A DNA stretch of 64,000 nucleotides from Pseudomonadales bacterium (GTDB lineage Bacteria; Patescibacteriota; Microgenomatia; UBA1400; PJMF01): NCBI GenBank assembly GCA_020632235.1, contig JACKFY010000001.1, positions 159,334-223,333 of the forward strand, written 5' to 3'. Position numbers and translations under genes: made by a program. The notes below the pieces were generated by a model. That model ran no database searches. It was not told the DNA's origin and saw only the letters and a program-made list of their open reading frames with translations. Below, one piece after another: positions 4,549 to 34,776 of this stretch. Every line of letters starts with the position of its first letter. Position 1 is the stretch's first letter.

Positions 4549-4549
4549 A

Positions 4550-9922: not shown

Positions 9923-9989
9923 AATTATCCTCCTTTCCTCAAGGTTTGCCGATGTTAGCTTCGTTAGCCATCGGTTGTCAAATCTTCTC

Positions 9990-10055
9990 TCGGTTTCACT
10001 AAAATCACCCTTTTCACTTATTAGTGAAAGTACCCGATTTAGTGAAAATCACCAG
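9990..10055. promoter_or_regulatory. cluster of direct and inverted repeats (TTTCACT / AGTGAAA, AAAATCACC) in a divergent intergenic region
   Basis: The sequence TTTCACTAAAATCACCC-TTTTCACTTATTAGTGAAAG-...-TTAGTGAAAATCACC includes the perfect palindrome TTCACTTATTAGTGAA. It is a candidate operator, or origin-associated site, upstream of the 10156 ORF. Confidence 0.3.
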
Positions 10056-21255: not shown

Positions 21256-21297
21256 CATGTATTTAGTAGTATACGGTATCAGTGCTATACTCACCCC

Positions 21298-22494
21298 ATG
21301 ATCCTCACTGAGCATGAAGCAAAACAACTACTTGCTGCAGCACAGATTGCTGTTTCTCGGTCAGTTTTGATCACCAAAGAGCAGTTTGAAGACGCTCTAT
21401 ATTTTGAAACAACGAGTCACCTGCAGTTTCCTGCTTTTGCAAAAGCTCAAGTCTTGCATGGCAATAGAGCGCTGTCTGGACTTATCCAAAAAGTAGAAAC
21501 GGCCCAACAGCTGGATGATGTACTTACCAACCTTTTTTCTCTTTCAGATCAAAACAAGCAGCCTGTTACGAGCATATTACTAGAGGAGGCAATAGAGCAT
21601 GACGCTCAGCATTACTTGAGTGTAAGTTACAGTACGCGTGAGAGATCAGTGGTGATGCAGTACTCGGATGCCGGTGGGGTAGGGATGGATGAAAGGGGTG
21701 GGGAGATGCAGACGCACATCCTCTCGATTCTCACTCCGCCGACCAGCTTTCCTCTCAATCCAGAATTACTACCCCTCGTGCAACAACTCTGGCATGTTTT
21801 TACCCAGCATGACGCAACGCTGGTCGAGATCAATCCTTTAGTTCAGAATAATGGTGAGTGGGTGTGTTTGGACGCCAAGATAGAGCTTGATAGCGTTGCT
21901 GCCTTTCGACATTCAGAGTGGAGCGCCTATCCTGCACGAACAACTGCCGGTGCACCGCCAACAGAGCGTGAGCAAAAAGCCAAAGCGGTGAGTCGCTCTG
22001 ATCATCGAGGCGTGGCGGGCGAGAGCTTTTTAGAGTTTCCTGGCGGCGAGGTAGGCATTATGGCGTCTGGCGGTGGCGCTTCTCTTTTAGTAATGGACGC
22101 ACTGCTGTTGGTTGGTATCAAGCCGGCCAACTACACGGAGTACTCCGGCAACCCCACGCGCGAGAAAGTCCACCAGCTGACTGAGGTTGTCCTTTCTATT
22201 CCCCGTCTCAATGCACTTTTCGTGGTGGGGAGTAACGCCAACTTTACTGATATTTACGAAACACTGGCGGGAGTTGTTGATGGGTTTCTTGCCAGTGCGT
22301 ACGCATCGCAAGAAGGGTTTATCATCCTGATTCGCCGCGGTGGTCCGCGGTGGCAAGAGGCATTTGAGATGGTGCGTGAGCGGCTGGCAGACAGAAGTGT
22401 TATTTTAGAGCTGTTGGGGCCTGACGCCCCAGTGACGAGCACTGCCGGTATCTTGAAAGAATTGCTTGAGCAACAAGCAAAAAAGAAAGTATAG
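21298..22494 (+). CDS. succinyl-CoA synthetase beta-subunit-like ATP-grasp protein (possible citryl-CoA synthetase small-subunit homologue)
   Basis: It has an N-terminal MILTEHEAKQLL segment, FAKAQVLHGNR (compare VVKAQVHAGGRGK), LVEINPLV, and a CoA-ligase C-domain GIMASGGGASLLVMDAL. Confidence 0.8.
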   Translation: MILTEHEAKQLLAAAQIAVSRSVLITKEQFEDALYFETTSHLQFPAFAKAQVLHGNRALSGLIQKVETAQQLDDVLTNLFSLSDQNKQPVTSILLEEAIEHDAQHYLSVSYSTRERSVVMQYSDAGGVGMDERGGEMQTHILSILTPPTSFPLNPELLPLVQQLWHVFTQHDATLVEINPLVQNNGEWVCLDAKIELDSVAAFRHSEWSAYPARTTAGAPPTEREQKAKAVSRSDHRGVAGESFLEFPGGEVGIMASGGGASLLVMDALLLVGIKPANYTEYSGNPTREKVHQLTEVVLSIPRLNALFVVGSNANFTDIYETLAGVVDGFLASAYASQEGFIILIRRGGPRWQEAFEMVRERLADRSVILELLGPDAPVTSTAGILKELLEQQAKKKV

Positions 22495-22498
22495 ACGT

Positions 22499-23401
22499 AT
22501 GGCGTTTTTAGTTACCTCAGGCACCAAAGCACTCATCCAGGGCATGACCGGCAAAGAAGGGCAACGCGCGCTGGGGTGGATGCGCGCGGCTGGGACAGAG
22601 GTCTTGGCTGGCGTGACTCCTGGCAAGGGCGGGCAAGAGGTAGGCGGTGTGCCTGTGTTTGACAGTGTGGCAGAGGCTACGGTGGCTTTTCCCCAGATTA
22701 ACGCGACCACGCTCTATGTGCCGCCACGGTTTGTGCTCTCGGCGTTTCGTGAGGCAGCCCAGGCCGATATTCCTCTCATCCATATTTTTGCAGAAAACGT
22801 GCCGGTTAAAGACACAGCCGAGATGATCGAGCTCTCTGGTCAAAAAAACATTCGAGTGGTGGGGCCCAGCTCGGTGGGTGTTTTTAGCCCTGGTGTTGGC
22901 AGACTGGGCACGGCTGGTGGGGGGGATGAGAGTAACTTTTTGGCTCCGTCGGGGGTGGGTGGGGTGGCGATTATCTCAAAAAGCGGTGGGATGATCCCCA
23001 CGCTTGCTTTTCCACTGACGCAAGCAGGCATTGCCCAGACCACCGTGGTAGGCATTGGGGGTGATAGCCTGGTGGGTAGTACCTACGCAGATCTTCTCGA
23101 CCTCATCGCAGCTGACGGGCAAACAAAGGCACTTTTTATCATCGGTGAGATAGGTGGTAGTTATGAAGAACAACTAGCCGAGGCCATTATCCAGACCCAT
23201 TTTGCAAAACCAGTAGTAGCGCTCATCACGGGGCTGTTTGCCCAGACGCTGCCGCAAGGCTCTACCTTTGGTCACGCGGGGGCGATTGTGAGCAGGACTG
23301 AAGGGACGCGGGAGGGCAAGATCAAGGCTTTGCAACGCGCAGGGGTGACTATTTTGGATGATGCCAGTCAGGTGGCGAGGGTGGTGGGGGAAGTGTTGTA
23401 G
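22499..23401 (+). CDS. succinyl-CoA synthetase alpha-subunit-like protein (CoA-binding, catalytic His)
   Basis: It contains GVTPGKGGQEV, SKSGGM, GIGGD and the phospho-histidine loop GHAGAIV. Its start is 5 nt after the sucC-like stop. Confidence 0.85.
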   Translation: MAFLVTSGTKALIQGMTGKEGQRALGWMRAAGTEVLAGVTPGKGGQEVGGVPVFDSVAEATVAFPQINATTLYVPPRFVLSAFREAAQADIPLIHIFAENVPVKDTAEMIELSGQKNIRVVGPSSVGVFSPGVGRLGTAGGGDESNFLAPSGVGGVAIISKSGGMIPTLAFPLTQAGIAQTTVVGIGGDSLVGSTYADLLDLIAADGQTKALFIIGEIGGSYEEQLAEAIIQTHFAKPVVALITGLFAQTLPQGSTFGHAGAIVSRTEGTREGKIKALQRAGVTILDDASQVARVVGEVL

Positions 23402-23476
23402 CAACAACAGTATGTGGGGTATACTGGGAGGCGTGTATTTGAGAAGTAGTATTTCCTGCCAAAAAAGGGTGTTTCA

Positions 23477-26400
23477 ATGAAGCAAAAAAAACCAACAAGC
23501 AAAAACACCTTTGCAGATTTCACCAACCTATATTCACTCTCCAAGACTCTTCGGTTTGAGCTTGTCCCCTACAATGATGAAACAAGAACGATGCTTGGTG
23601 AGCATGACATTTCCCAAAAAGGAAAACTACGCAAGGAAAAATATGAACAGACTAAGCCTTTTATAGATAGATTGCATCGAGAGTTTGTACAAGAGGCTCT
23701 CCTAGATGTAAAGCTGGAAGAGTTAGCAGAGTACGCCCAATCATATGAGTTTTGGAAAAAAGATAAGAAAGGCTCAAAACAGAAAAAAGCACTTGAGTCT
23801 GCTGAAAAAGCTTTGCTGAAAGAAATAGGAGTATTATTTGATTCTCAGGGTAAAAAATGGGCAGAAGAATTTGCAGGTATTGAGGAAGTAAGTCTTAAGA
23901 AAAAAGATAAAGCTATTTTATTTGAAGAGGGCATTATGTCTGTGCTCAAGTATAAGTATGGAGAAGATCCAGAAAGTTTTGTACCAGGGGAAGATGGAGA
24001 GCAAGTCTCAATTTTTGATGACTGGAAGGGTTTTAGCGGTTATTTCACCAAGTTTTTTGAAACGAGGAAAAATTTTTATACAACTGATGGGAAAGCAACA
24101 GAAGTCGCAACACGAATAGTCAATAACCTTCGTCTTTTTTTGGATAATAGGGAAACTGCTAAAAATGTTTTGGGGAAATTATCTCAGAAAGATATAGATA
24201 CTGTCGGTAACAATTTTGATCTGGATGTAACAAATATCTTCACCATTGACTATTACAACCGACTCTTACTGCAAGATGGTATTGATCATTACAATATAAT
24301 TCTTGGCGGTGAGACGAAAGATAACGGAGAGAAACTACAAGGGCTCAATGAACTAATCAATCTTTGGAAACAGCAAAATCCAGGCGAGAAGCCTCCTTTC
24401 TTCAAAAAACTACAAAAGCAGATCTTGAGTCCAAAAGAAGCGTTTATAGAGCAAATTGAAAGTGATGAGGAGTTGCGGCAAGAACTGCAAGGTTTGTTGA
24501 CTGCATATGAAAAACATATTCTGCCTGGCAGAGATTTATTTCAAAACTTAAAAAATGATACGCAAGACTATGATTTAGATAGTATTTATTTCAACTCGTT
24601 TGGTCTCAACACGTTGATTCAAAAATGGGTGGGTGATAAGTCAGAGTTTATTAATAACCTCTACGATGTGCTTTCACAAAAAGAGATAAAACAGATATAC
24701 GAAGGATTTGGATTTGGTATAGCAAAACGGACAGGTGAGAATACTAAGTTTCCAGATTTTGTACGACTCTCAGACCTGCAAGCAGCATTGTTGCGCACTC
24801 CTACAGACCATAAACTTTGGAAAGAGTCATATTACTCTGACAAAGTTGTATTAGCAGATGATAAAAAGAATACTACTTGGCAACAATTCTCAACTATTTT
24901 CATACATGAGTTTGAGCAACAGTTTCAACGCAAGATAAGAGGAGAAGATAATCAAAGTATTACTGCAGGTTTGGACACTTCTTATAAAGAGTTGGTAGAG
25001 ATATTGCCAAGCATGCAGGCACCAACTAGAGAGAATAAAGTGGTTATCAAGAATTTTGCCGATGATCTACTGCGCACCTATCAAATGGCAAAGTACTTTG
25101 CTCTAGAGAAAAAGAGGTCTTGGGTGAGCGGCTTGAGCGAAGACCCAGCTTTTTATGCAGATAAAAATTTTGGTTACTACACTCATTTTTATGAAAATGC
25201 ATATGAAGATATCGTCCAGCCCTACAATAGGATCAGAAATTACTTGACCAAGAAAAATTATGGAGAGGATAAATGGAAGTTGAACTTCAATAAAAGTAAT
25301 TTATTGGGTGGTTGGCCAGATAGCCCCCCTGGAAATACACAGTATGGGGGATTGCTGTTTCGCAAAGATGAAAAGTACTTTTTGGGCGTGACAGATTACC
25401 CTAAAGTATTTGATAAAACACAAAATCCAGAGGCATTTAAAACAAGTGGAGAGACATTTGAAAAGATGGTCTACAAACAAATTGATGCCAAGACTTTGTA
25501 CGGCTCCGTCTACAAAGGTTTGTACGGCTCGAAGTACTCTGATGACAAGGAAGAAATGAGCGACAATGAATTAATAGCAAGAGTGAAAGAGGTACTACTC
25601 ACCAAAGTAGATTCATTTCCAAAACTTCACCAAATAATTAAGAAAATCGAAGCTGGTGCATATACTGATGCAAAAGAATTGGCTCGAGAGATAAGCGCTG
25701 GCAATTTTTATAACATCGATTTTATTCAGGTTTCTGCTGACTACTTAAAGCAAGGCCGTTATGTTTCTGGGAAAAATCAAAAAAATCTTTTCCTCTTCCA
25801 AATCAAAAACAAAGACTGGAATAAAGGAGCGAAAAAAACACAGGCATCTAAAAACCTTCATACCCTGTACTTTGAGGCACTCTTCTCAGAAGAGAATAAA
25901 CAAGCAAACTTCCCATTCAAACTTAACGGACAAGCAGAGTTGTTCTTTAGACCAAAGGTAAGTAAAAGTATTCTGGGTACCAAAAAGGATAAGCAGGGTA
26001 AAGAAGTTATAGACCATAAAAGATTCAACAAAGATATGTACTACTTTCATGTGCCTTTGACAGTAAACAGAACTCAGGAAGATACAAATGCATATCGTTT
26101 CAATAGAGAGATAAACGAATTTCTTGCAGACAAGCCAAATATCAACATCATTGGACTTGACCGAGGGGAGAAACACCTTATTTACTACTCAGTGATTGAT
26201 CAGAAAGGCGAGCGAATCGATGCCGGGAGTTTTAATACTATTAACGGGAAAAATTATAAAGAATTGCTTGAACAAAAAGCTGAAGAGAGGAAGAAAGCAA
26301 AACAAGACTGGCAGAGTGTGGAACAGATCAAAGACTTGAAAAAAGGCTACTTATCACTCGTGGTGCGAAAGGTTGTAGATCTCGTGATAGCACACAATGC

Positions 26401-27418
26401 CATCATCGTCATGGAAGACCTCAATATGCGGTTCAAACAGATCAGGGGTGGTATAGAACAAAGTGTGTATCAACAATTTGAGAAAGCACTCATAGACAAA
26501 CTCTCTTTTTTGGTCAATAAAGGTGAGAAAGATCCAGAATCAGCAGGGTACCTGCTACGCGCATATCAACTAGCAGCTCCTTTTGAGTCATTTCAAAAGA
26601 TGGGAAAACAGACAGGGATAATTTTTTACACAACTGCCAGCTATACCTCCAAGATAGATCCGCTGACTGGATGGCGACCCAATATCTACCTCAAGTACTC
26701 TAATCAAGAGAAGGCGAAAAAAGATATTGCCAAGTTCAAGAATATTGTGTTTGACTCAGTGAAAAATAGATTTGAATTCACCTATGATCTGGCAGATTTT
26801 TATAACAAAAAAGGCAAGATTGAGTTTCCTCAAAAAAGAGAATGGACAGTCTGCTCAAATGTAGAGCGTTATGCGTGGGACAAAAGGCTCAGTGGCAACA
26901 AAGGTGGCTATACGCATTATCCAGACCTAACTGACGGCAAAGCAGAAAATATGTTTAAAGAAAACGCTATCTCAAACTTCAAAAATCTATTTGAAAGTGT
27001 GGGAATAGATATACGCGGTGATATTCAAGCACAAATTGCACAGTTAGATACAAAAGATAACAAACAATTTTTCTCAACTTTTATGTATCTGTTCCGCTTG
27101 ATACTCCAAATCAGAAATACCAACTCTAACGAGACAACTGGTAGTGATGACAACGACTATCTGCAATCACCAGTTGAGCCATTTTTTGACACGCGCAGAT
27201 CTGCAGACTTTGCTGAAGGCCTGCCACAAAATGGTGATGAAAACGGGGCATACAATATTGCCAGGAAAGGCATATTCATCCTAGACAGACTCAGTGAGTT
27301 TGAGAACTTGACCGATAACGAGAAGAAGAAACTCAAATATCCAGATATCTTGGTGAGGAATGTGGAGTGGGATGCATTTGCAACAGAGAGTAAGATGTTT
27401 CTATCATCAATTAGATGA
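23477..27418 (+). CDS. cas12a: Cas12a (Cpf1), type V-A CRISPR effector nuclease
   Basis: 1313 aa. The N-terminus YSLSKTLRFELVPY matches the Cas12a WED-I signature. RuvC-I is IGLDRGEKHLIYYSVID, RuvC-II is IVMEDLNMRFK and RuvC-III is NGDENGAYNIARKG. It is followed by cas4-cas1-cas2 and an array whose repeats end in the Cas12a handle TCTACTTTTGTAGAT. Confidence 0.95.
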   Translation: MKQKKPTSKNTFADFTNLYSLSKTLRFELVPYNDETRTMLGEHDISQKGKLRKEKYEQTKPFIDRLHREFVQEALLDVKLEELAEYAQSYEFWKKDKKGSKQKKALESAEKALLKEIGVLFDSQGKKWAEEFAGIEEVSLKKKDKAILFEEGIMSVLKYKYGEDPESFVPGEDGEQVSIFDDWKGFSGYFTKFFETRKNFYTTDGKATEVATRIVNNLRLFLDNRETAKNVLGKLSQKDIDTVGNNFDLDVTNIFTIDYYNRLLLQDGIDHYNIILGGETKDNGEKLQGLNELINLWKQQNPGEKPPFFKKLQKQILSPKEAFIEQIESDEELRQELQGLLTAYEKHILPGRDLFQNLKNDTQDYDLDSIYFNSFGLNTLIQKWVGDKSEFINNLYDVLSQKEIKQIYEGFGFGIAKRTGENTKFPDFVRLSDLQAALLRTPTDHKLWKESYYSDKVVLADDKKNTTWQQFSTIFIHEFEQQFQRKIRGEDNQSITAGLDTSYKELVEILPSMQAPTRENKVVIKNFADDLLRTYQMAKYFALEKKRSWVSGLSEDPAFYADKNFGYYTHFYENAYEDIVQPYNRIRNYLTKKNYGEDKWKLNFNKSNLLGGWPDSPPGNTQYGGLLFRKDEKYFLGVTDYPKVFDKTQNPEAFKTSGETFEKMVYKQIDAKTLYGSVYKGLYGSKYSDDKEEMSDNELIARVKEVLLTKVDSFPKLHQIIKKIEAGAYTDAKELAREISAGNFYNIDFIQVSADYLKQGRYVSGKNQKNLFLFQIKNKDWNKGAKKTQASKNLHTLYFEALFSEENKQANFPFKLNGQAELFFRPKVSKSILGTKKDKQGKEVIDHKRFNKDMYYFHVPLTVNRTQEDTNAYRFNREINEFLADKPNINIIGLDRGEKHLIYYSVIDQKGERIDAGSFNTINGKNYKELLEQKAEERKKAKQDWQSVEQIKDLKKGYLSLVVRKVVDLVIAHNAIIVMEDLNMRFKQIRGGIEQSVYQQFEKALIDKLSFLVNKGEKDPESAGYLLRAYQLAAPFESFQKMGKQTGIIFYTTASYTSKIDPLTGWRPNIYLKYSNQEKAKKDIAKFKNIVFDSVKNRFEFTYDLADFYNKKGKIEFPQKREWTVCSNVERYAWDKRLSGNKGGYTHYPDLTDGKAENMFKENAISNFKNLFESVGIDIRGDIQAQIAQLDTKDNKQFFSTFMYLFRLILQIRNTNSNETTGSDDNDYLQSPVEPFFDTRRSADFAEGLPQNGDENGAYNIARKGIFILDRLSEFENLTDNEKKKLKYPDILVRNVEWDAFATESKMFLSSIR

Positions 27419-27905
27419 TTGTTGTTTTTGACTCTGATTGCACTTCTGTAATGGCTCGTAATCACGAAAAGCTCTCAAGAGAAATGACACGCTTGGACCT
27501 GGTTGAAGCTATTACAATAGCTACGACAATGATAGTGTATGGGGAAAAACAACATGGACTTGCAAATCAAAGCATGCCGCGTTCTAAGCGAATAAGAATG
27601 ATGGAGTACCTTAAAAATGTGTTGGTTCTTAATATCACTGGTGATGCGCCAAAAATATATGGACAGCTATGCTTTGATTTAACTAACTGATTTAAAGAAA
27701 AGTTTAAAAAAGCATGCAAACAAAAAGAGGCAAAGAAAAAGGCTAAGGAAGAAGTAAAAAAATGCATAATGACATCTGGACGGCTGCTATTTGCATAGAG
27801 AACAAAGCTTTACTATATTCAAGAGATCAAGATTTTGCGAAAATAAAAGCCGTAGACGATAGAGTATCTTGGGTTGACTGCAGAGATCTGTTATCTAATA
27901 GCTAA
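27415..27905 (+). pseudogene. PIN-domain (VapC-like) nuclease gene disrupted by an A-rich insertion with an in-frame stop and a frame change
   Basis: The N-terminal piece (27415-27690, MIVVFDSDC...APKIYGQLCFDLTN) ends at TGA. The C-terminal piece (about 27759-27905, MHNDIWTAAICIENKALLYSRDQDFAKI...) is a canonical VapC C-terminus but lies in the -1 frame. The two are separated by about 70 nt of lysine-codon-rich sequence containing an A7 run. The start overlaps the cas12a stop (ATGA). Confidence 0.6.
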
Positions 27906-28467
27906 TTTTATGCACTCCTACATCCAACTCTCAAAACTCAATGATTTCTTGTTTTGCCCGTACTCTGTTTACTTGAAATCCATCTACGACGGTTTCAAGT
28001 CAGACACCTATCATGCTACTCCGCAAAAACGAGGCAAAATCCATCACAAAGCGATAGATGAAGGCACCTATTCTTCTTCAACCCGCTACCTGCAGGGGCT
28101 TTCTGTCTATTCTGAAAAATATAACATAGCGGGGAAAATAGATATTTACGATACAGAGAAAAAAGCTCTAGTCGATCGAAAATACAAAGTAAAAGCCGTC
28201 TACGACGGGCATCGTTTTCAACTGTTTGGACAGTACTTTTGTATGGCGGAGCGAGGGTATGAGGTTGAAAAACTGTTTTTACACTCATTATCAGACAATA
28301 AACGCTATGAGGTGGCACTACCAGAGGGAATATGGCTTGAAAAGTTTGAGCAATTGGTTGTACGCATGCAGAACCCAGAAAACTATGAAAAAGACCCCGA
28401 TGTAACAATTGAAAAATGTCAAAATTGTATCTATAGTGTGCTGTGCCCGTATGCTAAGTCTGCCTGA
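27874..28467 (+). CDS. cas4: Cas4 (RecB-like nuclease with 4Cys Fe-S cluster)
   Basis: A single Cys (FLFCPYS) lies near the N-terminus and a C-terminal C-x2-C-x5-CPY cluster (CQNCIYSVLCPY) follows. It is positioned between cas12a and cas1. The true start may be the internal Met (MHSYIQL) at 27910. Confidence 0.85.
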   Translation: MTAEICYLIANFMHSYIQLSKLNDFLFCPYSVYLKSIYDGFKSDTYHATPQKRGKIHHKAIDEGTYSSSTRYLQGLSVYSEKYNIAGKIDIYDTEKKALVDRKYKVKAVYDGHRFQLFGQYFCMAERGYEVEKLFLHSLSDNKRYEVALPEGIWLEKFEQLVVRMQNPENYEKDPDVTIEKCQNCIYSVLCPYAKSA

Positions 28468-29407
28468 TTTTATCGAAAAAAAGATTTTAGTTGTTCCTAT
28501 AGAAGAAAAACTGGAGAGTCAGTTGAAATTACAAGTTGGCAACATAGTTTTAATGAAAGAAGGAAAAGTTATTGATAAGGTATCGTGCCACATTGTGTTT
28601 TGCATGGTGATTATTGGCGATTGCTCTATCACAACCAAGCTCATCCGAGAGCTTCAAAGCTATGGTATATCGGTTTTCTTACTCAACAGGTCTTTCAAGT
28701 TTATTACCAGCATACATGCACATGCAGAAGGCAACTATCAACTGAGGGAAAAACAGTATTTCCTTGATAAAGATACAGAGCTTTTGCTTTCCAAGCAGTT
28801 TGTCCAGAATAAGATAGATAACCAATGGGGCATCTTGCAGAAGACTGGACGGCTTGATCTTGAGCAGGCATATCGAGACACAACAGAAAAAGTGACGCTA
28901 GCCAACTCCATCGATTCTCTCAGAGGCCTAGAAGGGTCCTTTGCTTCTCGTTATTTTTCTGGTATTTTTGATGAAATTGGCTGGCTTCGCCGTGCTCCCA
29001 GAACAAAGGAAGATATAGCGAATGTCTTGCTTGATATAGGGTACACGTTTGTGTTCAATTATGTAGATGCACTTTTGCGCTTGTTTGGCTTTGACACATA
29101 CAAAGGTGTGTATCATCAGTTATTTTTCCAAAGACAGTCTCTTTCGTGCGATCTGATGGAGCCAATGCGTCCGATGATTGACTACCAACTCAGAAAGTCG
29201 TTCAATTTAGGCCAAATACAAGAAAAAGACTTTGTATTCAAAAACGAATCATTTCGTTTTAAGGACTACTCAGTCTCTGGGTCGTATTCCAATATTTGGT
29301 TTGATTTGATCATGAAGAAAAGAGAAGACATGTATCAATTCATATTTGGGTACTATCGGTGTTTTCAAAATCCAGAAAAGTATGAGTATGCTCAGTTCAA
29401 AGTATGA
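28409..29407 (+). CDS. cas1: Cas1 integrase
   Basis: Cas1-like sequence throughout. It overlaps the cas4 3' end and is followed by cas2 with a 4-nt overlap. Confidence 0.9.
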   Translation: MKNVKIVSIVCCARMLSLPDFIEKKILVVPIEEKLESQLKLQVGNIVLMKEGKVIDKVSCHIVFCMVIIGDCSITTKLIRELQSYGISVFLLNRSFKFITSIHAHAEGNYQLREKQYFLDKDTELLLSKQFVQNKIDNQWGILQKTGRLDLEQAYRDTTEKVTLANSIDSLRGLEGSFASRYFSGIFDEIGWLRRAPRTKEDIANVLLDIGYTFVFNYVDALLRLFGFDTYKGVYHQLFFQRQSLSCDLMEPMRPMIDYQLRKSFNLGQIQEKDFVFKNESFRFKDYSVSGSYSNIWFDLIMKKREDMYQFIFGYYRCFQNPEKYEYAQFKV

Positions 29408-29685
29408 TTGTTGTTGCCTACGATATCAGTAAGACGTCAAAGAGAACGAAGTTCTCCAAATTTTTAGAAAGGTACGGAGACCGCATTCAGTACTCGGTTT
29501 TTGTGTGCAAAAATAGCAAGCGAATTATGGAAAATATCACCACCGAGATAGAACATCACTTTGCCAAGTATTTTGATGCTGAAGACAGCGTGTTTGTGTT
29601 CACTACGTGTCAGAGTTGTGACAAGAAAACGCTCAAATATGGCAATGCTTCTCACTATGAAAAAGATGTGATATATTTTGGCTAG
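29404..29685 (+). CDS. cas2: Cas2
   Basis: 93-aa MIVVAYDIS... Cas2 fold signature, immediately upstream of the leader and array. Confidence 0.9.
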   Translation: MIVVAYDISKTSKRTKFSKFLERYGDRIQYSVFVCKNSKRIMENITTEIEHHFAKYFDAEDSVFVFTTCQSCDKKTLKYGNASHYEKDVIYFG

Positions 29686-29894
29686 CGTGCTCATTAACAT
29701 AGTTTTTTTACACAAAGGTATAAGTCTTTCTGTGTTGAATAAACCTCGGTCTTTCTATTTTGATATATTTATACTCATTTATAATATATTGTGTGTATAT
29801 ATCAATGTAGTCTCTTCCTGAGTCAGTCAAAAATGTCCAAGTTATATGTGCAGCTTTTTGTATCATTTTTGATTGACTCACCAATATTTAGGCA
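29686..29894 (+). promoter_or_regulatory. AT-rich CRISPR leader with candidate sigma70-like promoter (TTGATA ... TATAAT)
   Basis: A roughly 210-nt AT-rich segment between the cas2 stop and the first repeat. TTGATA sits near 29760 and TATAAT near 29780, with about 14-16 nt spacing. Confidence 0.4.
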
Positions 29895-31760
29895 GTTTAT
29901 TCAAAGTAGTCGATTTCTACTTTTTTGTAGATTCTCGAGCTCAGCGAAGTTTATTCAAAGTAGTCGATTTCACTTTTGTAGTTGAGTGTTTATTCAAAGT
30001 AGTCGATTTCTACTTTTGTAGATAGATGTTACCGTTGACCAGTCGCTCAGTTTATTCAAAGTAGTCGATTTCTACTTTTGTAGATAAGTCGTTTGAGGCT
30101 ACACATTCCACGTAGTTTATTCAAAGTAGTCGATTTCTACTTTTGTAGATTATACCCTGTCGTAATGTAGCGAGTTAATTCAACGAGAAGTTTATTCAAA
30201 GTAGTCGATTTCTACTTTTGTAGATTTTTAACAATGACAGTCCTACAGAAGACGTTTATTCAAAGTAGTCGATTTCTACTTTTTGTAGATCTTTAGTAAA
30301 AACATGATTCCGAGTTTATTCAAAGTAGTCGATTTCTACTTTTTTAGATCGTATAGACTTCTCAATCAGTGAGTTAATTTAGTTTATTCAAAGTAGTCGA
30401 TTTCTACTTTTGTAGATGCGCGTATGATGGCATGGATATATGCAAAAGTTTATTCAAAGTAGTCGATTTCTACTTTTGTAGATAAATAGTCATCTTTCTT
30501 TGTAGTCGATTTCTACTTTTGTTTCTGTTTATTCAAAGTAGTCGATTTCTACTTTTGTAGATAGATGAGCTAAAAGCGTCTGTAAAATGTAGTTTATTCA
30601 AAGTAGTCGATTTCTACTTTTGTAGATTTAAATAATGTTTATTCAAAGTAGTCGATTTCTAGAGAAAAGCTACCTCGAGTTTATTCAAAGTAGTCGATTT
30701 CTACTTTTGTAGATATCGATGTGTAGTGAGTGGGTATTGGTGGTGTTTATTCAAAGTAGTCGATTTCTACTTTTGTAGATAAATGTCCTCTGTTTGTCTA
30801 AACAGTTTATTCAATTAGTCGGTTTATTCAAAGTAGTCGATTTCTACTTTTGTAGTTTATTCAAAGTAGTCGATTTCTACTTTTGTATGAAGAGGAGGAT
30901 ATCTACATTAGTTTATTCAAAGTAGTCGATTTCTACTTTTGTAGATAATTGAAAGTTGTAGCGTTCTATTTAATAGTTTATTCAAAGTAGTCGATTTCTA
31001 CTTTTTGATGCTCGCAGTTAAAAAACAGGTTGGTGATAAGTTTAGTCGATTTCTACTTTTGTAGATTGTAGATGGAGCAGCTTAAAGCTCGTTGATGGTT
31101 TATTCAAAGTAGTCGATTTCTACTTTTGTAGATCACCAGGCTGGCTGGTATTGTTGACAGTTTATTCAAAGTAGTCGATTTCTACTTTTGTAGATAGTGC
31201 TGACCTGTCATCGAATGACGTCATGTTTATTCAAAGTAGTCGATTTCTACTTTTGTAGATCTCGAGAAGATTTTTCTTTATCAAGGGTTTATTCAAAGTA
31301 GTCGATTTCTACTTTTGTAGATATTCTTCTAATGATTTTGATCCTTATCCAGTTTATTCAAAGTAGTCGATTTCTACTTTTGTAGATTTTGTTTATAGTG
31401 AGCTAAAATTTGGTTTATTCAAAGTAGTCGATTTCTACTTTTGTAGATTACCAGTTTATTATTCTTCAAGATAACAATTCGTTTATTCAAAGTAGTCGAT
31501 TTCTACTTTTGTATATTCGAAAAAACCACCTTCTATAACTCCGTTTATTCAAAGTAGTCGATTTCTACTTTTGTAGATATATATGACTTATTTATTGCTT
31601 TTGAGTTTATTCAAAGTAGTCGATTTCTACTTTTGTAGATACTACAAGACCAATATTGATAAGGCAGTTTATTCAAAGTAGTCGATTTCTACTTTTGTAG
31701 ATGTGGCACTGCTACTGATTTACTTCTTGGTTTATTCAAAGTAGTCGATTTCACCCCATC
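29895..31760 (+). CRISPR. Type V-A CRISPR array, about 30 repeats of GTTTATTCAAAGTAGTCGATTTCTACTTTTGTAGAT (36 nt), transcribed in the same direction as the cas genes
   Basis: Direct reading of the sequence. Typical units have 23-32 nt spacers. The 3' part of the repeat forms the Cas12a crRNA hairpin UCUAC-UUUU-GUAGA-U. The terminal repeat, from about 31730, is truncated after GATTTC. Confidence 0.95.
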
Positions 31761-32098
31761 GCCCACCGCACAATTCCTACCACTGCGATGGTGTATACAA
31801 CGAGCCCTAAAAACTTCCTCCAAGGGCAAACTCCCTCAAAGATTTCCAGAAGTGCCCAGTAGATGATGGTGATATAGGATGCTGCCCGAAAGAACGGATG
31901 TAGCTGAGTGAACAAGTGATTTGTCACAAAAAGCCCAATAAGCGTTGTAAACCAAGCCAATAGCGGAGCGTTTGCCTTTTGGGCGATGACAACATTTCCC
32001 TCTTTATCAGTGAAGAATGCTCGAATAGAGGTACGTAGTGCGTGATGCATCTTTTTACTATAGCACTTGTCCTCACCGCGCACTATAATGAACTGCAT
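31751..32098 (-). CDS. hypothetical small membrane protein
   Basis: 115-aa ORF with two or three hydrophobic helices. Its stop codon lies inside the terminal degenerate repeat and its 5' end overlaps the start of the next gene on the opposite strand. It may be shorter (Met at residue 17). Confidence 0.4.
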   Translation of the reverse strand: MQFIIVRGEDKCYSKKMHHALRTSIRAFFTDKEGNVVIAQKANAPLLAWFTTLIGLFVTNHLFTQLHPFFRAASYITIIYWALLEIFEGVCPWRKFLGLVVYTIAVVGIVRWAMG

Positions 32099-32834
32099 GT
32101 CTGCAGGACTTCACTTTGACACTACTGTTTCAACTACTGCATCAGACGGTAGTCACCTCCTTCGTGGCAAGGCACTTACCGAGTGTATAGATGATGCAGA
32201 CTTTGTCAGTACATTTTTTCTCTCGCTGACTGGTCGTGAGCCAACCCAGGTAGAGTCTCGGTTGCTCAACGCTATGTTGGTAGCGTCCCTTGACCATGGG
32301 GTAGAGCCGTCATCTATGTTTGTCCCTAGAGTGGTAGCCTCGACGGGTAACGAGATGCTTCATTGCATGGCTACTTCACTCTTGGCGCTTGGGCCCCTGC
32401 ACGGTGGGGCTATCACCGGGGCAATGGAGATGTTCTACAGCCTCAAAGACAAAGAAGATAAAGAGCAAGCGTGTGTGCAGCTGGTAGAAGAGTTTCGCGC
32501 GAAAAAAAAACGAGTGCCAGGATATGGACATCCAAAGTACAAAGACAAAACAACCGGTGACCCACGCGCCCAGCAACTACTGCAGATGGCAGAAAAGGGA
32601 GGTCTTGATACTTCAGTTACCATGACCGCGCGAATTTTGGAAAATACGCTGGAATGGAAACTCAACAAAGTATTGGTGCTCAATATTGACGGGGCAATGG
32701 CAGCGCTTTTAACCACGTTTGGCATTGCGCCAGAGGCAGGAAACGGTATATTTGGGGTAGCACGCGTGGCTGGTAGTATTGCCCACATCGTAGAAGAACA
32801 AGAGAGTGATGCTGGTGTGAGAAGGCTAGCATAA
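32067..32834 (+). CDS. short citrate-synthase-family protein (citryl-CoA lyase-like)
   Basis: It has LVASLDHG (compare the citrate synthase LxxADHE) and VPGYGHPKYKDKTTGDPRAQQL (compare GFGHRVYKxxDPRA), and ends FGVARVAGSIAHIVEE. At 255 aa it corresponds to the CCL/small citrate-synthase-domain size. Confidence 0.65.
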   Translation: MSSPRTIMNCMSAGLHFDTTVSTTASDGSHLLRGKALTECIDDADFVSTFFLSLTGREPTQVESRLLNAMLVASLDHGVEPSSMFVPRVVASTGNEMLHCMATSLLALGPLHGGAITGAMEMFYSLKDKEDKEQACVQLVEEFRAKKKRVPGYGHPKYKDKTTGDPRAQQLLQMAEKGGLDTSVTMTARILENTLEWKLNKVLVLNIDGAMAALLTTFGIAPEAGNGIFGVARVAGSIAHIVEEQESDAGVRRLA

Positions 32835-32849
32835 AGAAAGAATACAATC

Positions 32850-33809
32850 ATGAGTACGTCAAAAAAAAATACACAAAAATCCACTCATCGTCACCCGTGG
32901 CAACTTCTTTTTGTCAAAGGCTTTGCGATGGGCTCGGCTGACATCGTGCCAGGAGTATCGGGTGGTACGATTGCCTTTATTGTCGGTATCTACCAAGACT
33001 TGATTACAAGTATTAACACCCTGACGAGCACCACGCTCAAGCTCTTTTTACAATTGAAATGGAAAGAAGCGTGGCGCTCTATCCCATTTGGTTTTCTCCT
33101 TCCCCTGGGGATTGGTATTATTGCCGCCATTGCACTACTCACCTCTCTCATCGCTCATCTTCTTGCAACATATCCTGTGTTCGTCTGGTCGTTTTTCTTT
33201 GGTCTGATCTGCGCCTCGATTTTTTTGATTGGCAAGAAACTAGGTTCGTGGACTGTGCAAGATGTCGTGGTACTTTGTTTGTCGGCTGGTGTAGCCTACT
33301 GGATTAGTGGTGCTGTACCCAGTCAGACACCAGACACCCCCACTGCCTACTTTTTGGCAGGGATGATCGCCATTTGTGCCATGATCCTGCCTGGAGTGAG
33401 TGGCTCGTTTCTGCTCATTCTGATGGGAAAGTACCAGCAGATATTGGTGGCGGTTAATACGCTTGATCTGATGACACTAGCCACCTTTATGGCGGGGGCA
33501 GTGCTGGGGTTGGTTTCGTTTGCAAAAGTACTCGGCTATCTCTTTGAACATCACTACCGAGTGGTGATTGCTGCGCTGACTGGCTTTATGCTCGGCTCGC
33601 TGAGAAAAGTCTGGCCCTGGAAAGAAACACTTGAAACCTACACTGACTCTCATGGGGAGGTAATCCCGCTGGTGCAGCACAACGTGTTGCCAACAACCCT
33701 TGATGCGGGGGTGATTGGGGCTGTTGTTCTGGCTTGTGTAGGTATGGGTTTGATTGTGTTGTTGGATCGATCGTCAGATAGCTCTACTAGTGGTAAGAGT
33801 GAGTTCTAG
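32850..33809 (+). CDS. DUF368 family membrane protein (putative undecaprenyl-phosphate transporter family)
   Basis: Two copies of the PGVSGGT/PGVSGSF motif (compare the DUF368 PGVSRSG) and about 8 TM helices. Confidence 0.7.
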   Translation: MSTSKKNTQKSTHRHPWQLLFVKGFAMGSADIVPGVSGGTIAFIVGIYQDLITSINTLTSTTLKLFLQLKWKEAWRSIPFGFLLPLGIGIIAAIALLTSLIAHLLATYPVFVWSFFFGLICASIFLIGKKLGSWTVQDVVVLCLSAGVAYWISGAVPSQTPDTPTAYFLAGMIAICAMILPGVSGSFLLILMGKYQQILVAVNTLDLMTLATFMAGAVLGLVSFAKVLGYLFEHHYRVVIAALTGFMLGSLRKVWPWKETLETYTDSHGEVIPLVQHNVLPTTLDAGVIGAVVLACVGMGLIVLLDRSSDSSTSGKSEF

Positions 33810-33834
33810 CTCAGATGTCAGAGGGATTTTTGGT

Positions 33835-34755
33835 TTACACCAATGCGCTTTGCAGCTTGTTACTCAATTGACCGGCAAACATCTTTGCGTTATGTCCGAT
33901 AAACACCAGTGTGTTGCCCACGTCTTGACTATTATCCAGTAGCTCAAGCGTCACCCTTCCAGCCACAGCGTTACAAAGCACCCTGCCTGCTTGTGTGCGG
34001 ACAATGCCTTTGGCACGAAAGAGTTCTGGTGGCACACTCTCAAGCACTTCGAGTAGTTTTTCTTGATCAAATAACCCCTCCAATGTAATAGTACTAGCAG
34101 AAAAGTGGTCGGTTTCTAGGTGGTTGTGCACTGCACTCTCGGCTGTGCGAAGGAGTGTTTCTAGCTCTTGGCGACTCGCTCCCACAATAACAGCAAGTGG
34201 CGCTTTGCCCCCCACCGCCTCAATAATGGGGGAGTGCTCGTTGAGCTCTCGCACGTACGAAACGACTTGGCGTTTTCGCTCGTCATCTACCATTTCTACC
34301 TTGTTAAACACCAAGACATCAGTAAACTTTGTTTGTTCTTGGGCAGTGATAGAGAGATCTTGGTAGCCCTCAAAGTTGACTACATCTATGACGCTAATCA
34401 CACCGTCTCTGGTGAGTAGTGGGTGAGAGGAAATCATCAGGGCAAGGGCAGCGGGGTCGGCGGCACCTGATGCCTCGATAATAATCCGACTGGGGGTGTA
34501 GCGATAGGCCAACTCGTCAATGGTGGCGGTAAACGGCCCCACCAGCGTACAGCAGATGCAACCGTTTAGGAGCTCTGTTGTCTGGACTCCTTGTTCTTTC
34601 AACACCTGCGCGTCAATATCGGTTTCTCCTACTTCATTTTTAATGTAGATAGTCTGCTCACCCCTGGCTTGCAGTTCGTCAATCAAGTGGGTGATGATAG
34701 TGGTCTTGCCCGAGCCTAAAAAACCAGTGAAGAGGGTGGTGGGGATGCTCTGCAT
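33835..34755 (-). CDS. CobW/HypB/UreG (G3E) family GTPase, COG0523 zinc-chaperone-like
   Basis: It has the Walker A GFLGSGKTT, a GCICC metal-binding motif and a CobW C-terminal domain. Confidence 0.8.
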   Translation of the reverse strand: MQSIPTTLFTGFLGSGKTTIITHLIDELQARGEQTIYIKNEVGETDIDAQVLKEQGVQTTELLNGCICCTLVGPFTATIDELAYRYTPSRIIIEASGAADPAALALMISSHPLLTRDGVISVIDVVNFEGYQDLSITAQEQTKFTDVLVFNKVEMVDDERKRQVVSYVRELNEHSPIIEAVGGKAPLAVIVGASRQELETLLRTAESAVHNHLETDHFSASTITLEGLFDQEKLLEVLESVPPELFRAKGIVRTQAGRVLCNAVAGRVTLELLDNSQDVGNTLVFIGHNAKMFAGQLSNKLQSALV

Positions 34756-34776
34756 TATGTCTATGATACCCGGATA

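What the first reader, a model, noticed from the sequence alone, without database searches (positions are those of the whole stretch)
21298..32834. The cas12a cassette splits a sucC-like / sucD-like / citrate-synthase-like (ATP-citrate-lyase-type) gene set
From the sequence: SucC-like (21298-22494) and SucD-like (22499-23401, catalytic GHAGAIV) genes end 76 nt before cas12a. A 255-aa citrate-synthase-family gene (32067-32834, motifs LDHG and GYGHPKYK...DPRA) begins right after the array. From established knowledge: ATP-citrate lyase is composed of exactly these three modules, fused in eukaryotes and split as citryl-CoA synthetase plus citryl-CoA lyase in some bacteria. By inference: the three genes were probably once contiguous, and the roughly 8.4-kb CRISPR-Cas island inserted between them. 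A rTCA-type module in this kind of genome would also be interesting.
Basis: inference. Interest (0 to 1): 0.7.

Follow-up and report, generated by a model that had tools for sequence, protein, structure and literature searches.

The report
CRISPR-Cas12a island splits citrate-cleavage operon
In this tiny-genome (Patescibacteria/CPR) bacterium, a three-gene set for ATP-dependent citrate cleavage that sits as one block in most relatives has been split by an 8.4-kb Cas12a CRISPR locus plus one small gene; this is a tidy but fairly ordinary case of a defence locus landing in a metabolic operon.

Summary
Genes 21298-22494 and 22499-23401 encode a citryl-CoA-synthetase-like pair: the beta subunit carries the ATP-citrate-lyase citrate-binding domain, and the alpha subunit has the GHAGA phosphohistidine motif. 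Gene 32088/32097-32834 encodes a short citryl-CoA-lyase-like protein, not a full citrate synthase.

Between them lie cas12a, a 91-aa ORF, cas4, cas1, cas2 and a CRISPR array of about 30 repeats (23477-31752).

In 18 of 26 informative related Patescibacteria loci the three metabolic genes are directly adjacent (gaps of 85 nt or less). The closest relatives also share the downstream backbone (cobW, prmC, yqeY, alaS). The nearest Cas12a cassettes sit in unrelated contexts. Insertion into an ancestral ccsA-ccsB-ccl cluster is therefore the best reading (about 0.8).

- No target-site duplication, integrase or transposase was found, so the insertion mechanism is unknown.
- An rTCA cycle is not implied. 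CCS/CCL and ACL genes in CPR bacteria have already been reported, with citrate scavenging proposed for the ACL.

Verdict: new member of a known kind, modest interest.

Side observations:
- Some relatives keep ccl but have no ccsAB nearby.
- Other CPR lineages carry a fused archaeal/eukaryote-like ACL.

The parts
21298..22494 (+). ccsA-like gene: citryl-CoA synthetase large (beta) subunit-like protein, 398 aa, with an ATP-grasp domain plus the ACL-type citrate-binding domain
   Evidence: Pfam ATP-grasp_2 and Citrate_bind PF16114 (85 bits, cutoff 26.8). Best PDB matches are 6hxq_B CcsA (1.7e-39) and 6hxj_A AclB (9e-38), against SucC at 5e-21. The NCBIfam SucC model scores 127 bits, far below its 375 cutoff. 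The motifs EYSGNP, SNANFTD and IRRGGP align to human ACLY G309, N346/T348 and R379 (residue roles recalled from memory).
22499..23401 (+). ccsB-like gene: small (alpha) subunit, 300 aa, with CoA-binding and CoA-ligase domains and the phosphohistidine motif GHAGA
   Evidence: Pfam CoA_binding and Ligase_CoA. PDB matches: archaeal SCS-alpha 1e-67, CcsB 6hxq_A 2e-53, AclA 8e-35. The NCBIfam SucD model scores 247 bits, below its 336 cutoff.
23402..23476 (.). Left junction: 75-nt spacer between the ccsB stop codon and the cas12a start codon
   Evidence: Sequence. GC is 42.7%. An NCBI contig of the same organism (L003) ends at window position 23444, inside this spacer. No repeat of 8 nt or more is shared with the right junction.
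23477..27418 (+). cas12a (type V-A effector), 1313 aa
   Evidence: TIGR04330 at 724 bits (cutoff 300). Pfam REC1, RuvC_1 and NUC. GC is 37.8%. The nearest homologues are about 50% identical and lie in other CPR lineages.
27415..27690 (+). 91-aa ORF of unknown function that overlaps the cas12a stop codon
   Evidence: Called as a gene in Logan assemblies. No Pfam or PHROGs match. Absent from the two nearest Cas12a cassettes examined.
27874..28467 (+). cas4 (the start is probably at 27910)
   Evidence: Pfam Cas_Cas4. The public gene call is 185 aa.
28409..29407 (+). cas1 (the start is probably at 28451)
   Evidence: Pfam Cas_Cas1 at 1.5e-49. The public gene call is 318 aa.
29404..29685 (+). cas2
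   Evidence: Pfam CRISPR_Cas2 at 3e-17.
29686..29894 (+). AT-rich CRISPR leader
   Evidence: GC is 29.7%. It lies between cas2 and the first repeat.
29895..31752 (+). CRISPR array of about 30 copies of a 36-nt Cas12a-type repeat, ending in a 23-nt truncated repeat
   Evidence: The repeat 3' end TCTACTTTTGTAGAT is the canonical Cas12a crRNA handle (established knowledge). Several units have abnormal spacing.
31751..32050 (-). Gene for a small, apparently membrane protein of unknown function (99 aa; the longest ORF runs to 32098). It is not part of the low-GC island by composition.
   Evidence: 280 homologues at E<=1e-3 in the representative library, and the window's own product is on record as 99 aa. 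GC is 46.6% and GC3 51.7%. No Pfam or PHROGs match. Absent within 10 kb of ccl in all 52 related loci. Homologues sit in unrelated contexts. The membrane and two-TM description is my own reading of the sequences.
32088..32834 (+). ccl-like gene: citryl-CoA lyase-like protein, 248 aa (245 aa if it starts at 32097; the TTG at 32067 gives 255 aa)
   Evidence: NCBIfam citryl-CoA lyase subfamily NF004869 at 182.5 bits (cutoff 212), against at most 105 bits for citrate synthase models. PDB 6hxp CCL at 3.4e-35 against citrate synthase at 1e-20. Catalytic His/His/Asp are conserved in LDHG, GYGHPKY and NIDGA. NJ tree.
32850..35556 (.). Conserved downstream backbone that anchors the ancestral locus: VCA0040-like (+), cobW (-), prmC-like methyltransferase (-)
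   Evidence: Pfam matches. The same genes in the same order follow ccl in L005, L007, L010 and L017, among others. yqeY, an HTH_25 gene and alaS further downstream are also syntenic.

Best explanation
The window comes from a Patescibacteria (CPR) genome that NCBI nr labels Candidatus Woesebacteria. Its lineage inherited a three-gene cluster, ccsA-ccsB-ccl. This is the split, two-enzyme form of ATP-citrate lyase.

Proposed chemistry (inferred from homology, not shown):
- The CcsA/CcsB-like heteromer would use ATP and CoA to make citryl-CoA from citrate through a phosphohistidine on the alpha subunit.
- The short Ccl-like protein would cleave citryl-CoA into acetyl-CoA and oxaloacetate. The pair could also run in reverse.

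In this genome alone among those sampled, the tight ccsB-ccl junction has been opened. It now holds an 8.35-kb low-GC type V-A CRISPR-Cas locus (cas12a, orf91, cas4, cas1, cas2, leader, array of about 30 repeats) and a 99-aa membrane-protein gene on the opposite strand. All three metabolic genes remain full length with catalytic motifs intact, so the enzyme set is probably still functional. ccl must now be transcribed separately from ccsAB.

Shown here: gene identities at family level, the synteny, the composition, and the junctions in an independent assembly.
Inferred: the direction of the event (insertion here rather than loss elsewhere), continued function, and the physiological role. The most likely role is use of scavenged citrate as a source of acetyl-CoA and oxaloacetate in an organism without a TCA cycle, not autotrophic rTCA.
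Unknown: the insertion mechanism.
For: Family assignment:
- Citrate_bind domain on the beta subunit.
- Best solved relatives are the H. thermophilus CCS large subunit and CCL.
- NCBIfam citryl-CoA lyase models score far above citrate synthase models.
- ACLY citrate-contact motifs align.
- The citrate synthase/CCL catalytic His/His/Asp are invariant or nearly invariant across the family, including the window copy.
- The NJ tree places ccl in a Patescibacteria clade whose nearest neighbour is a mixed group containing the Aquificota/6hxp CCL, separate from citrate synthases and from the fused CPR AclA clade.

Synteny:
- 18 of 26 informative split-type loci have a ccsB-ccl gap of 85 nt or less.
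- The backbone ccl ... cobW-prmC-yqeY-HTH-alaS is shared with the window.
- NJ trees of ccsAB and of ccl both place the window in the same major clade (support values were not shown).

Foreignness of the insert:
- GC is 36.4% against 48.2-48.5% in the flanks.
- The nearest Cas12a cassettes, about 50% identical, sit between unrelated housekeeping genes in other CPR genomes: pheT|dnaE and uvrA|uppS.

Reality of the junctions: the independent assembly L001 agrees at 99.9% identity.

Intactness: the window proteins keep 93-99% of the columns that are at least 95% conserved.

Literature: CCS/CCL are reported in CPR and DPANN (10.1101/2022.10.25.513756). An ACL with a proposed citrate-scavenging role is reported in a Gracilibacterium (PMC6851277).
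Against: - No target-site duplication (longest shared word 7 nt), and no integrase or transposase, so there is no mechanistic signature of insertion.
- Cas12a cassettes in two other CPR contigs are also 4-8 GC points below their flanks, so low GC alone is weak evidence of recent transfer.
- The closest relatives are only 49-61% identical in these proteins. No strain-level empty site is available.
- Left-flank synteny (PDDEXK-DUF5665 upstream of ccsA) is not kept in the window.
- Six related loci carry ccl with no ccsAB within at least 8.4 kb upstream. Three other loci have other inserts of about 1-2 kb between ccsB and ccl. The trio is therefore not universally contiguous.
- The alpha subunit scores higher against archaeal succinyl-CoA synthetase alpha than against CcsB.
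- NCBIfam scores for all three proteins lie below the curated cutoffs.
- ccl shows the most deviations from conserved columns among its clade, at 3 of 58.
- No enzymology and no whole-genome pathway context were available.
Confidence: 0.8

Rival explanations
1. The ancestor carried an orphan ccl, as in relatives L013, L016 and L020. A later rearrangement or recombination then brought a segment with enolase, the pyrimidine-dimer glycosylase gene, ccsA, ccsB, the cas locus and the small gene next to it. On this reading the present order is secondary and not an insertion into an intact trio.
For: Six related loci share the PDDEXK-DUF5665-ccl backbone but lack ccsAB. The window lacks PDDEXK and DUF5665 and has a different left flank. 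The ccsA start codon lies 3 nt from the divergent start of the glycosylase gene, which points to a rearranged left side.
Against: ccsAB lie upstream of ccl on the same strand and in the ancestral order. NJ trees of ccsAB and of ccl both place the window in the same major clade. ccsAB have host-like GC (50-57%), unlike the island, so they did not arrive together as one foreign block. The scenario needs a coincidence that recreates the ancestral order.
Confidence: 0.1
2. The genes are an ordinary succinyl-CoA synthetase (SucCD) plus a truncated, decaying citrate synthase, and have nothing to do with citrate cleavage.
For: The alpha subunit is most similar to archaeal succinyl-CoA synthetase alpha (1e-67). 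Public annotations often name these proteins succinyl-CoA synthetase or citrate synthase.
Against: The beta subunit has the ACL citrate-binding domain and scores 127 bits against a 375-bit SucC cutoff. The short protein belongs to a conserved family of 245-260 aa with more than 85 clusters at 43-61% identity and intact catalytic residues. Its best match is a characterised CCL.
Confidence: 0.03
3. The cas locus between ccsB and ccl is ancestral and the relatives lost it, or the arrangement is a metagenome assembly chimera.
For: The NCBI contig L003 breaks 43 nt after ccsB. The CRISPR array contains many abnormal units and collapses in another assembly.
Against: Loss would have to be precise and repeated across at least 18 lineages, each leaving gaps of 0-85 nt. 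Cas12a cassettes sit in unrelated contexts elsewhere. Two independent assemblies agree on both junctions at 99.2-99.9% identity.
Confidence: 0.04

Closest known systems
Citryl-CoA synthetase (CcsA/CcsB) plus citryl-CoA lyase (Ccl) of Hydrogenobacter thermophilus (Aquificae); PDB 6HXQ and 6HXP
   Same: The same three separate polypeptides are present. The beta subunit has an ATP-grasp domain plus a citrate-binding domain. The alpha subunit has the GHAGA phosphohistidine motif. The lyase is a short protein of about 250 aa with the citrate-synthase fold and lacks the citrate synthase N-terminal region. These are the best solved-structure matches for the beta subunit and the lyase.
   Different: Identity is low and the phmmer E-values are only 1e-35 to 1e-39. 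NCBIfam scores fall below the curated cutoffs. The host is a reduced-genome Patescibacterium in which a full rTCA cycle is not expected (established knowledge about CPR; not tested here). In most CPR relatives the three genes form one cluster. In the one Aquificota locus sampled (L032), ccl has no ccsAB within 10 kb upstream.
Two-subunit ATP-citrate lyase AclB/AclA (Chlorobium; archaeal Methanosaeta type) and eukaryotic ACLY
   Same: The modules and the presumed chemistry are the same. The citrate-binding motifs align to human ACLY. AclB is the second-best match for the beta subunit.
   Different: In ACL the SucD-like and CCL-like modules are fused in one chain. Here they are separate genes, now 8.7 kb apart. 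Other CPR lineages (L042-L055) do carry the fused form, and that form is closest to human and Methanosaeta ACLY.
ACL reported in a Gracilibacterium (CPR), Sieber et al. 2019, PMC6851277; CCS/CCL noted in CPR and DPANN, bioRxiv 10.1101/2022.10.25.513756
   Same: Both concern citrate-cleaving enzymes in CPR bacteria that lack a TCA cycle, often misannotated as succinyl-CoA synthetase or citrate synthase. For the Gracilibacterium ACL the proposed role is use of external citrate to make acetyl-CoA and oxaloacetate.
   Different: Those reports do not describe an operon interrupted by a CRISPR-Cas locus. The Gracilibacterium enzyme is the two-subunit fused type, not the split CCS/CCL type.
Type V-A (Cas12a/Cpf1) CRISPR-Cas loci of CPR bacteria
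   Same: The locus has cas12a-cas4-cas1-cas2 plus an array of 36-nt repeats ending in TCTACTTTTGTAGAT. The nearest homologues are in Peregrinibacteria, Roizmanbacteria, Moranbacteria and others.
   Different: There is an extra 91-aa ORF between cas12a and cas4, and the location is inside a metabolic gene cluster. The nearest cassettes lie between unrelated housekeeping genes.

Membership tests
[quoted passage not shown] | Short protein of about 250-270 aa with the citrate-synthase fold that lacks the N-terminal part of citrate synthase | tested here: met
   245-248 aa. Matches Pfam Citrate_synt profile positions 134-352 of 357 only. Family members are 225-272 aa.
[quoted passage not shown] | Closer in sequence to characterised CCL than to citrate synthase or the ACL C-terminal module | tested here: met
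   6hxp CCL scores 125 bits, against 77 or less for citrate synthase and 57 or less for AclA. NCBIfam CCL models score 143-182 bits against 105 or less for citrate synthase models. NJ tree.
[quoted passage not shown] | Reaches the curated NCBIfam cutoff for a citryl-CoA lyase model | tested here: not met
   The best model, NF004869, scores 182.5 bits against a cutoff of 212. The protein is a divergent lineage of the family.
[quoted passage not shown] | Catalytic His, His and Asp of the citrate synthase/CCL active site | tested here: met
   H70 (LDHG), H148 (GYGH) and D201 (NIDGA) are invariant or nearly invariant in 32 family members, including the window copy. Residue roles come from established knowledge of citrate synthase.
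[quoted passage not shown] | Cleaves citryl-CoA to acetyl-CoA and oxaloacetate | not testable with these tools
   Needs an enzyme assay.
[quoted passage not shown] | Large subunit with an ATP-grasp domain plus the ACL-type citrate-binding domain | tested here: met
   PF08442 and PF16114 both score above their gathering cutoffs. The best PDB match is CcsA 6hxq_B. Citrate-contact motifs are conserved.
[quoted passage not shown] | Small subunit with a CoA-binding domain and the phosphohistidine loop GHAGA | tested here: met
   PF02629 and PF00549. FGHAGAIVS is present.
[quoted passage not shown] | Small subunit distinguishable from succinyl-CoA synthetase alpha | tested here: inconclusive
   Archaeal SCS-alpha scores 232 bits, CcsB 185 bits and E. 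coli SucD 170 bits. The assignment rests on its pairing with the citrate-binding beta subunit.
ATP-citrate lyase (AclAB / ACLY, EC 2.3.3.8) | SucD-like and CCL-like modules fused in one polypeptide | tested here: not met
   They are separate ORFs here and in the split-type relatives. Fused AclA (594 aa) occurs only in other CPR loci, L042-L055.
Succinyl-CoA synthetase (SucCD) | Reaches the NCBIfam equivalog cutoffs for SucC and SucD | tested here: not met
   SucC model: 126.6 bits against a cutoff of 370. SucD model: 247.3 bits against a cutoff of 336.
Citrate synthase | Full-length enzyme of about 360-430 aa that reaches a citrate synthase model cutoff | tested here: not met
   The protein is 248 aa. 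The best citrate synthase model scores 105 bits against a cutoff of 421.
Type V-A CRISPR-Cas | Cas12a effector, adaptation genes cas4-cas1-cas2, and an array with a Cas12a-type repeat | tested here: met
Reductive TCA cycle | Co-occurrence with 2-oxoglutarate:ferredoxin oxidoreductase, fumarate reductase, aconitase, isocitrate dehydrogenase and the other cycle enzymes | not testable with these tools
   None of these appears among the window ORFs that were annotated, nor among the gene families recurrent in the +/-10 kb flanks of related loci. Whole genomes were not available. CPR genomes generally lack the cycle (established knowledge).
Transposon or integrative mobile island | Target-site duplication, terminal repeats, integrase or transposase | tested here: not met
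   The longest word shared between the two junction zones is 7 nt. No recombinase was found among the island's ORFs.

The most novel reading that the evidence does not exclude
Citrate cleavage may be a widespread, conserved entry point of carbon in CPR bacteria rather than the rarity the literature suggests. The radiation may also preserve every architectural stage of ATP-citrate lyase. These stages are the split ccsA-ccsB-ccl cluster in Woesebacteria/Pacebacteria-type lineages, an orphan ccl in the same genomic backbone, and a fused archaeal/eukaryote-like AclB/AclA in Saccharibacteria, Parcubacteria and Roizmanbacteria. On this reading the ccsB|ccl seam is a recurrent breakpoint where the modules are uncoupled by inserts or by loss of ccsAB. 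The orphan CCL would then have a function independent of CCS, for example citrate-synthase-like condensation.
Probability: 0.25. Interest if true: 0.55.

Novelty: new member of a known kind. Interest (0 to 1): 0.3.

Why it matters
The finding documents a clean natural case in which a CRISPR-Cas locus has landed inside a tightly packed metabolic gene cluster of a minimal-genome symbiont without destroying the genes. That is useful for thinking about where defence loci integrate in CPR genomes and how such operons tolerate being split.

The more general value lies in the metabolic module. A citryl-CoA synthetase/lyase set is conserved across many Patescibacteria that are not expected to run a TCA cycle. 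This points to citrate, probably taken from a host or the environment, as a source of acetyl-CoA and oxaloacetate. Alternatively the reverse reaction could serve as an ATP-yielding step.

That idea, and the presence of these genes in CPR, is already in the literature. The increment here is therefore modest.

Tried and rejected
- Target-site duplication or inverted repeats between 23380-23500 and 31690-32110: only chance 7-mers were found.
- Sigma-70 promoter and terminator scan of 20800-33900: promoter-like sites are no more frequent than in shuffles (24 against 25.7), so it says nothing about how ccl is now transcribed. A TATAAT at 32084-32089, just upstream of ATG 32097, is noted from the sequence only.
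- Exact look-up of the 255-aa TTG-start ccl product: not on record. Public gene calls use the ATG starts.
- Is the small minus-strand gene the DUF5665 gene that precedes ccsA or ccl in relatives? No similarity (E=20).
- Pfam and PHROGs for the small gene, nine of its homologues (Pfam only) and orf91: no matches.
- Is the small gene linked to ccl or to CRISPR elsewhere? No. It is absent from all 52 related loci, and its homologues sit next to dUTPase/NUDIX or DUF981/PhyH genes.
- Conserved-neighbour analysis for metabolic partners such as transporters, malate dehydrogenase or acetate kinase: only housekeeping neighbours recur.
- The first bootstrapped tree with Biopython timed out. The faster rerun gave topologies, but support values were not displayed, so those trees are used only for gross congruence.
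- Low GC as proof of recent transfer: weakened, because cas12a cassettes in two other CPR contigs are also AT-richer than their flanks.
- Literature searches with Patescibacteria/Microgenomates plus citryl-CoA lyase or ATP citrate lyase mostly returned community surveys. None of the hits that I opened describes this interrupted arrangement.

Full report
**1. What is in the sequence**

- 21298-22494 (+): a 398-aa protein with an ATP-grasp domain and the ATP-citrate-lyase citrate-binding domain (PF16114, 85 bits against a cutoff of 26.8).
- 22499-23401 (+): a 300-aa CoA-binding/CoA-ligase alpha subunit with FGHAGAIVS.
- 23477-27418: Cas12a (TIGR04330, 724 bits).
- 27415-27690: an unannotated 91-aa ORF.
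- Then cas4, cas1 and cas2, up to 29685.
- 29686-29894: a 209-nt AT-rich leader.
- 29895-31752: an array of about 30 copies of a 36-nt repeat that ends in the Cas12a handle TCTACTTTTGTAGAT.
- 32067-32834: the longest ORF of a short citrate-synthase-family protein. Public gene calls start it at ATG 32088 (248 aa) or ATG 32097 (245 aa).

On the minus strand at 31751-32050 there is a 99-aa small protein gene that looks like a membrane protein. It has 280 homologues at E<=1e-3. Its stop codon overlaps the truncated terminal repeat.

**2. Is the arrangement real?**

An independent assembly from another sequencing run (L001) is 99.9% identical from upstream of ccsA through cas2. It reproduces the junction of truncated repeat, small gene and ccl. 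Only the array is collapsed. A chimera is therefore unlikely. NCBI nr names the organism Candidatus Woesebacteria bacterium. The 'Pseudomonadales' labels on these records are misnomers for Patescibacteria MAGs.

**3. What the three metabolic proteins are**

*Beta subunit.* Its best solved relatives are the Hydrogenobacter thermophilus citryl-CoA synthetase large subunit (1.7e-39) and Chlorobium AclB (9e-38). SucC reaches only 5e-21, and the NCBIfam SucC model scores 127 bits against a cutoff of 375. The C-terminal domain alone matches ACL/CCS at 1e-24 and SucC at 8e-6. The motifs EYSGNP, SNANFTD and IRRGGP align with human ACLY G309, N346/T348 and R379. I recall these as citrate contacts from the ACLY crystal-structure literature; the alignment is tool-based and the residue roles are from memory.

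*Short protein.* Its best solved relative is H. thermophilus citryl-CoA lyase (3.4e-35), against 1e-20 for citrate synthases and 1e-14 for ACL C-terminal modules. The best NCBIfam models are citryl-CoA lyase subfamilies at 143-182 bits, against 105 or less for citrate synthase models, though all are below curated cutoffs. The catalytic His/His/Asp are conserved. An NJ tree puts it inside a large Patescibacteria clade. That clade's nearest neighbour is a mixed group containing the Aquificota/6HXP CCL. Both lie apart from citrate synthases and from a second CPR clade made of fused AclA proteins.

*Alpha subunit.* It cannot be discriminated. Archaeal succinyl-CoA synthetase alpha scores 232 bits, CcsB 185 and AclA 124.

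Overall this is the split CCS/CCL form of ATP-citrate lyase. It is not SucCD plus citrate synthase, and it is not the fused AclAB.

**4. Were the genes once contiguous?**

A scan of one genome per GTDB species returned 52 loci. tblastn mapping gave the following.

Split-type Patescibacteria loci (29 in total):

| Arrangement | Loci |
|---|---|
| ccsB to ccl gap of 85 nt or less | 18 |
| Gap of 292 nt | 1 |
| 1.96-kb insert encoding an ATPase-like gene and a 172-aa gene (L024) | 1 |
| ccl present, no ccsAB within at least 8.4 kb upstream | 6 |
| Too short to tell | 3 |

More distant loci:
- Contiguous sets occur in Nanohaloarchaea and two other lineages.
- Daviesbacteria (L038) and Nanohalobium (L041) have inserts of 1-1.4 kb.

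The closest relatives (L005, L007, L010, L017) share the window's downstream order: ccl, then (Band_7), then VCA0040-like, cobW(-), prmC(-), yqeY, an HTH gene and alaS. The right side of the window is therefore the ancestral locus. NJ trees of ccsA+ccsB and of ccl place the window in the same major clade, which argues against separate origins for the two halves. Parsimony strongly favours an ancestral ccsA-ccsB-ccl cluster that was opened in this lineage.

**5. The insert**

The stretch 23402-31752 has 36.4% GC, against 48.2% and 48.5% on either side. The nearest Cas12a proteins are only about 50% identical and belong to other CPR lineages. Two of their cassettes sit between pheT and dnaE, and between uvrA and uppS. 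The cassette therefore lands in varied housekeeping contexts.

Two cautions apply. Those two cassettes are also 4-8 GC points below their flanks, so composition alone is weak evidence. And there is no target-site duplication, integrase or transposase, so the mechanism is unknown.

The small minus-strand gene has host-like GC (46.6%). It is absent near ccl in every relative and occurs in unrelated contexts elsewhere. It truncates the terminal repeat. It is either a separate event or the right-hand recombination partner of the island.

The window's left flank also differs from relatives: it has no PDDEXK or DUF5665 genes. This leaves a minority scenario, about 0.1, in which a rearrangement joined ccsAB plus the island to an orphan ccl.

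**6. Are the genes still functional?**

All three are full length. They keep 93-99% of the columns that are at least 95% conserved in the clade. ccl has the most deviations in its clade (A75S, G77M, F165L), and the alpha subunit has five conservative changes. These numbers are too small to claim relaxed selection.

In relatives, ccl starts 0-60 nt after ccsB, which suggests co-transcription. Here it must be expressed on its own or by read-through from the array. The promoter scan was uninformative.

**7. How it most likely works, and what it is for**

By homology, CcsAB would form citryl-CoA from citrate, ATP and CoA, and Ccl would split it into acetyl-CoA and oxaloacetate. The reaction pair can in principle run backwards and yield ATP.

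Neither the window ORFs that were annotated nor the gene families that recur in the 10-kb flanks of relatives include other TCA or rTCA genes. CPR genomes generally lack the cycle (established knowledge). An autotrophic rTCA reading is therefore unlikely. Citrate scavenging, as proposed for the ACL of a Gracilibacterium (PMC6851277), is the most economical hypothesis. This step is inference.

**8. Comparison with what is known, and novelty**

CCS/CCL homologues in CPR and DPANN, misannotated as succinyl-CoA synthetase or citrate synthase, were reported in a 2022 preprint (10.1101/2022.10.25.513756). A two-subunit ACL in a CPR bacterium was reported in 2019, where it was called 'rarely detected in CPR'. 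Cas12a loci in CPR are well known.

What is specific here is the interruption of the cluster by a CRISPR-Cas locus. I rate this a new member of a known kind, with interest about 0.3.

Side observations that may deserve more attention than the split itself:
- Orphan-ccl genomes in the same backbone.
- A fused AclB/AclA, closest to human and Methanosaeta ACLY, in Saccharibacteria, Parcubacteria and Roizmanbacteria loci.
- Recurrence of rearrangements at the ccsB|ccl seam.

Noticed in passing
L013, L016, L018, L020, L022, L023 (ccl at about 10001 in each; 8421 in L023): Six related Patescibacteria loci carry ccl but have no ccsA or ccsB within at least 8.4 kb upstream. In L013, L016 and L020 the PDDEXK-nuclease and DUF5665 genes that precede ccsA in other relatives sit directly upstream of ccl, as if ccsAB had been cleanly removed. 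No ccsA-like hit from the 1.08-Mb contig of L016 appears among the top 120 homologues listed. This suggests a truly orphan CCL.
   Followed up: partly
L042-L055, e.g. L047:7783-10738: Fourteen loci titled Saccharibacteria, Parcubacteria/Paceibacterota, Roizmanbacteria, Patescibacteria group or 'Gammaproteobacteria' carry a two-gene pair. In L047, the one read in detail, it is AclB-like (389 aa) plus a fused AclA-like protein (594 aa, SucD-like plus CCL-like modules). The fused protein is closest to human ACLY and Methanosaeta ACL (about 330 bits), not to Chlorobium AclA (217 bits). Split and fused citrate-cleavage enzymes therefore both exist within CPR.
   Followed up: partly
L024:1110-3018; L038:3412-4415; L041:6374-7814: Other lineages also have unrelated inserts exactly between the sucD-like gene and ccl. 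L024 has a 420-aa ATPase-like gene and a 172-aa gene on the opposite strand. The Daviesbacteria locus L038 has a 258-aa ORF. The Nanohalobium locus L041 has two ORFs. The junction appears to be a recurrent breakpoint.
   Followed up: partly
window 29895-31752: The CRISPR array contains many abnormal units. These include repeats with 1-2 extra T (29895, 30254), repeats with internal deletions followed by almost no spacer (29949), repeats abutting each other with no spacer (30822/30855), half repeats (30503, 30637, 31043), and spacings of 33-45 and 122 nt instead of 61-68. The cause may be real recombination scars or misassembly. The independent assembly L001 collapses the array and shows a spacer not present in the window.
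   Followed up: partly
window 27415-27690 (+): A 91-aa ORF overlaps the cas12a stop codon by 4 nt and precedes cas4. It has no Pfam or PHROGs match and is absent from the two nearest Cas12a cassettes examined. Its function is unknown; an accessory or anti-defence role is pure speculation.
   Followed up: partly
window 31751-32050 (-): The small protein gene belongs to an uncharacterised family of 85-120-aa proteins with 280 homologues and no Pfam model. From the sequences it looks like a two-TM protein with a conserved W-A-x-x-E-x-x-x-G-x-x-P-W-R-R/K stretch. Its stop codon overlaps the last, truncated CRISPR repeat.
   Followed up: partly
window 1-10000: A second low-GC stretch (34-45% GC) carries type I restriction-modification genes: hsdS-like 4550-5710, and hsdM-like with an N-terminal MerR/HTH domain at 6928-8619. 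It also carries a Bro-N domain gene (6039-6935) and several ORFs with no family match. It is probably another acquired defence island.
   Followed up: partly
window 21294-21298: The start codon of ccsA (21298, +) lies 3 nt from the start of the divergent pyrimidine-dimer glycosylase gene as publicly called (20923-21294, -). There is essentially no intergenic promoter space. The upstream genes (enolase, TGT) differ from those upstream of ccsA in relatives.
   Followed up: no
L003 (NCBI GCA_020429115.1, JAGQLT010000024.1), end of contig = window 23444: A public contig from the same organism ends 43 nt after the ccsB stop codon, inside the 75-nt spacer before cas12a. The break could reflect population heterogeneity at the island boundary or simply a coverage or composition break.
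   Followed up: no
record titles of L005, L007, L011-L016 and others: Many Patescibacteria MAG records are titled 'Pseudomonadales bacterium' or 'uncultured Gammaproteobacteria bacterium', although their isolate names (HK-STAS-PATE-xx) and nr names (Candidatus Woesebacteria) indicate CPR. Taxon labels in these collections should not be taken at face value.
   Followed up: partly
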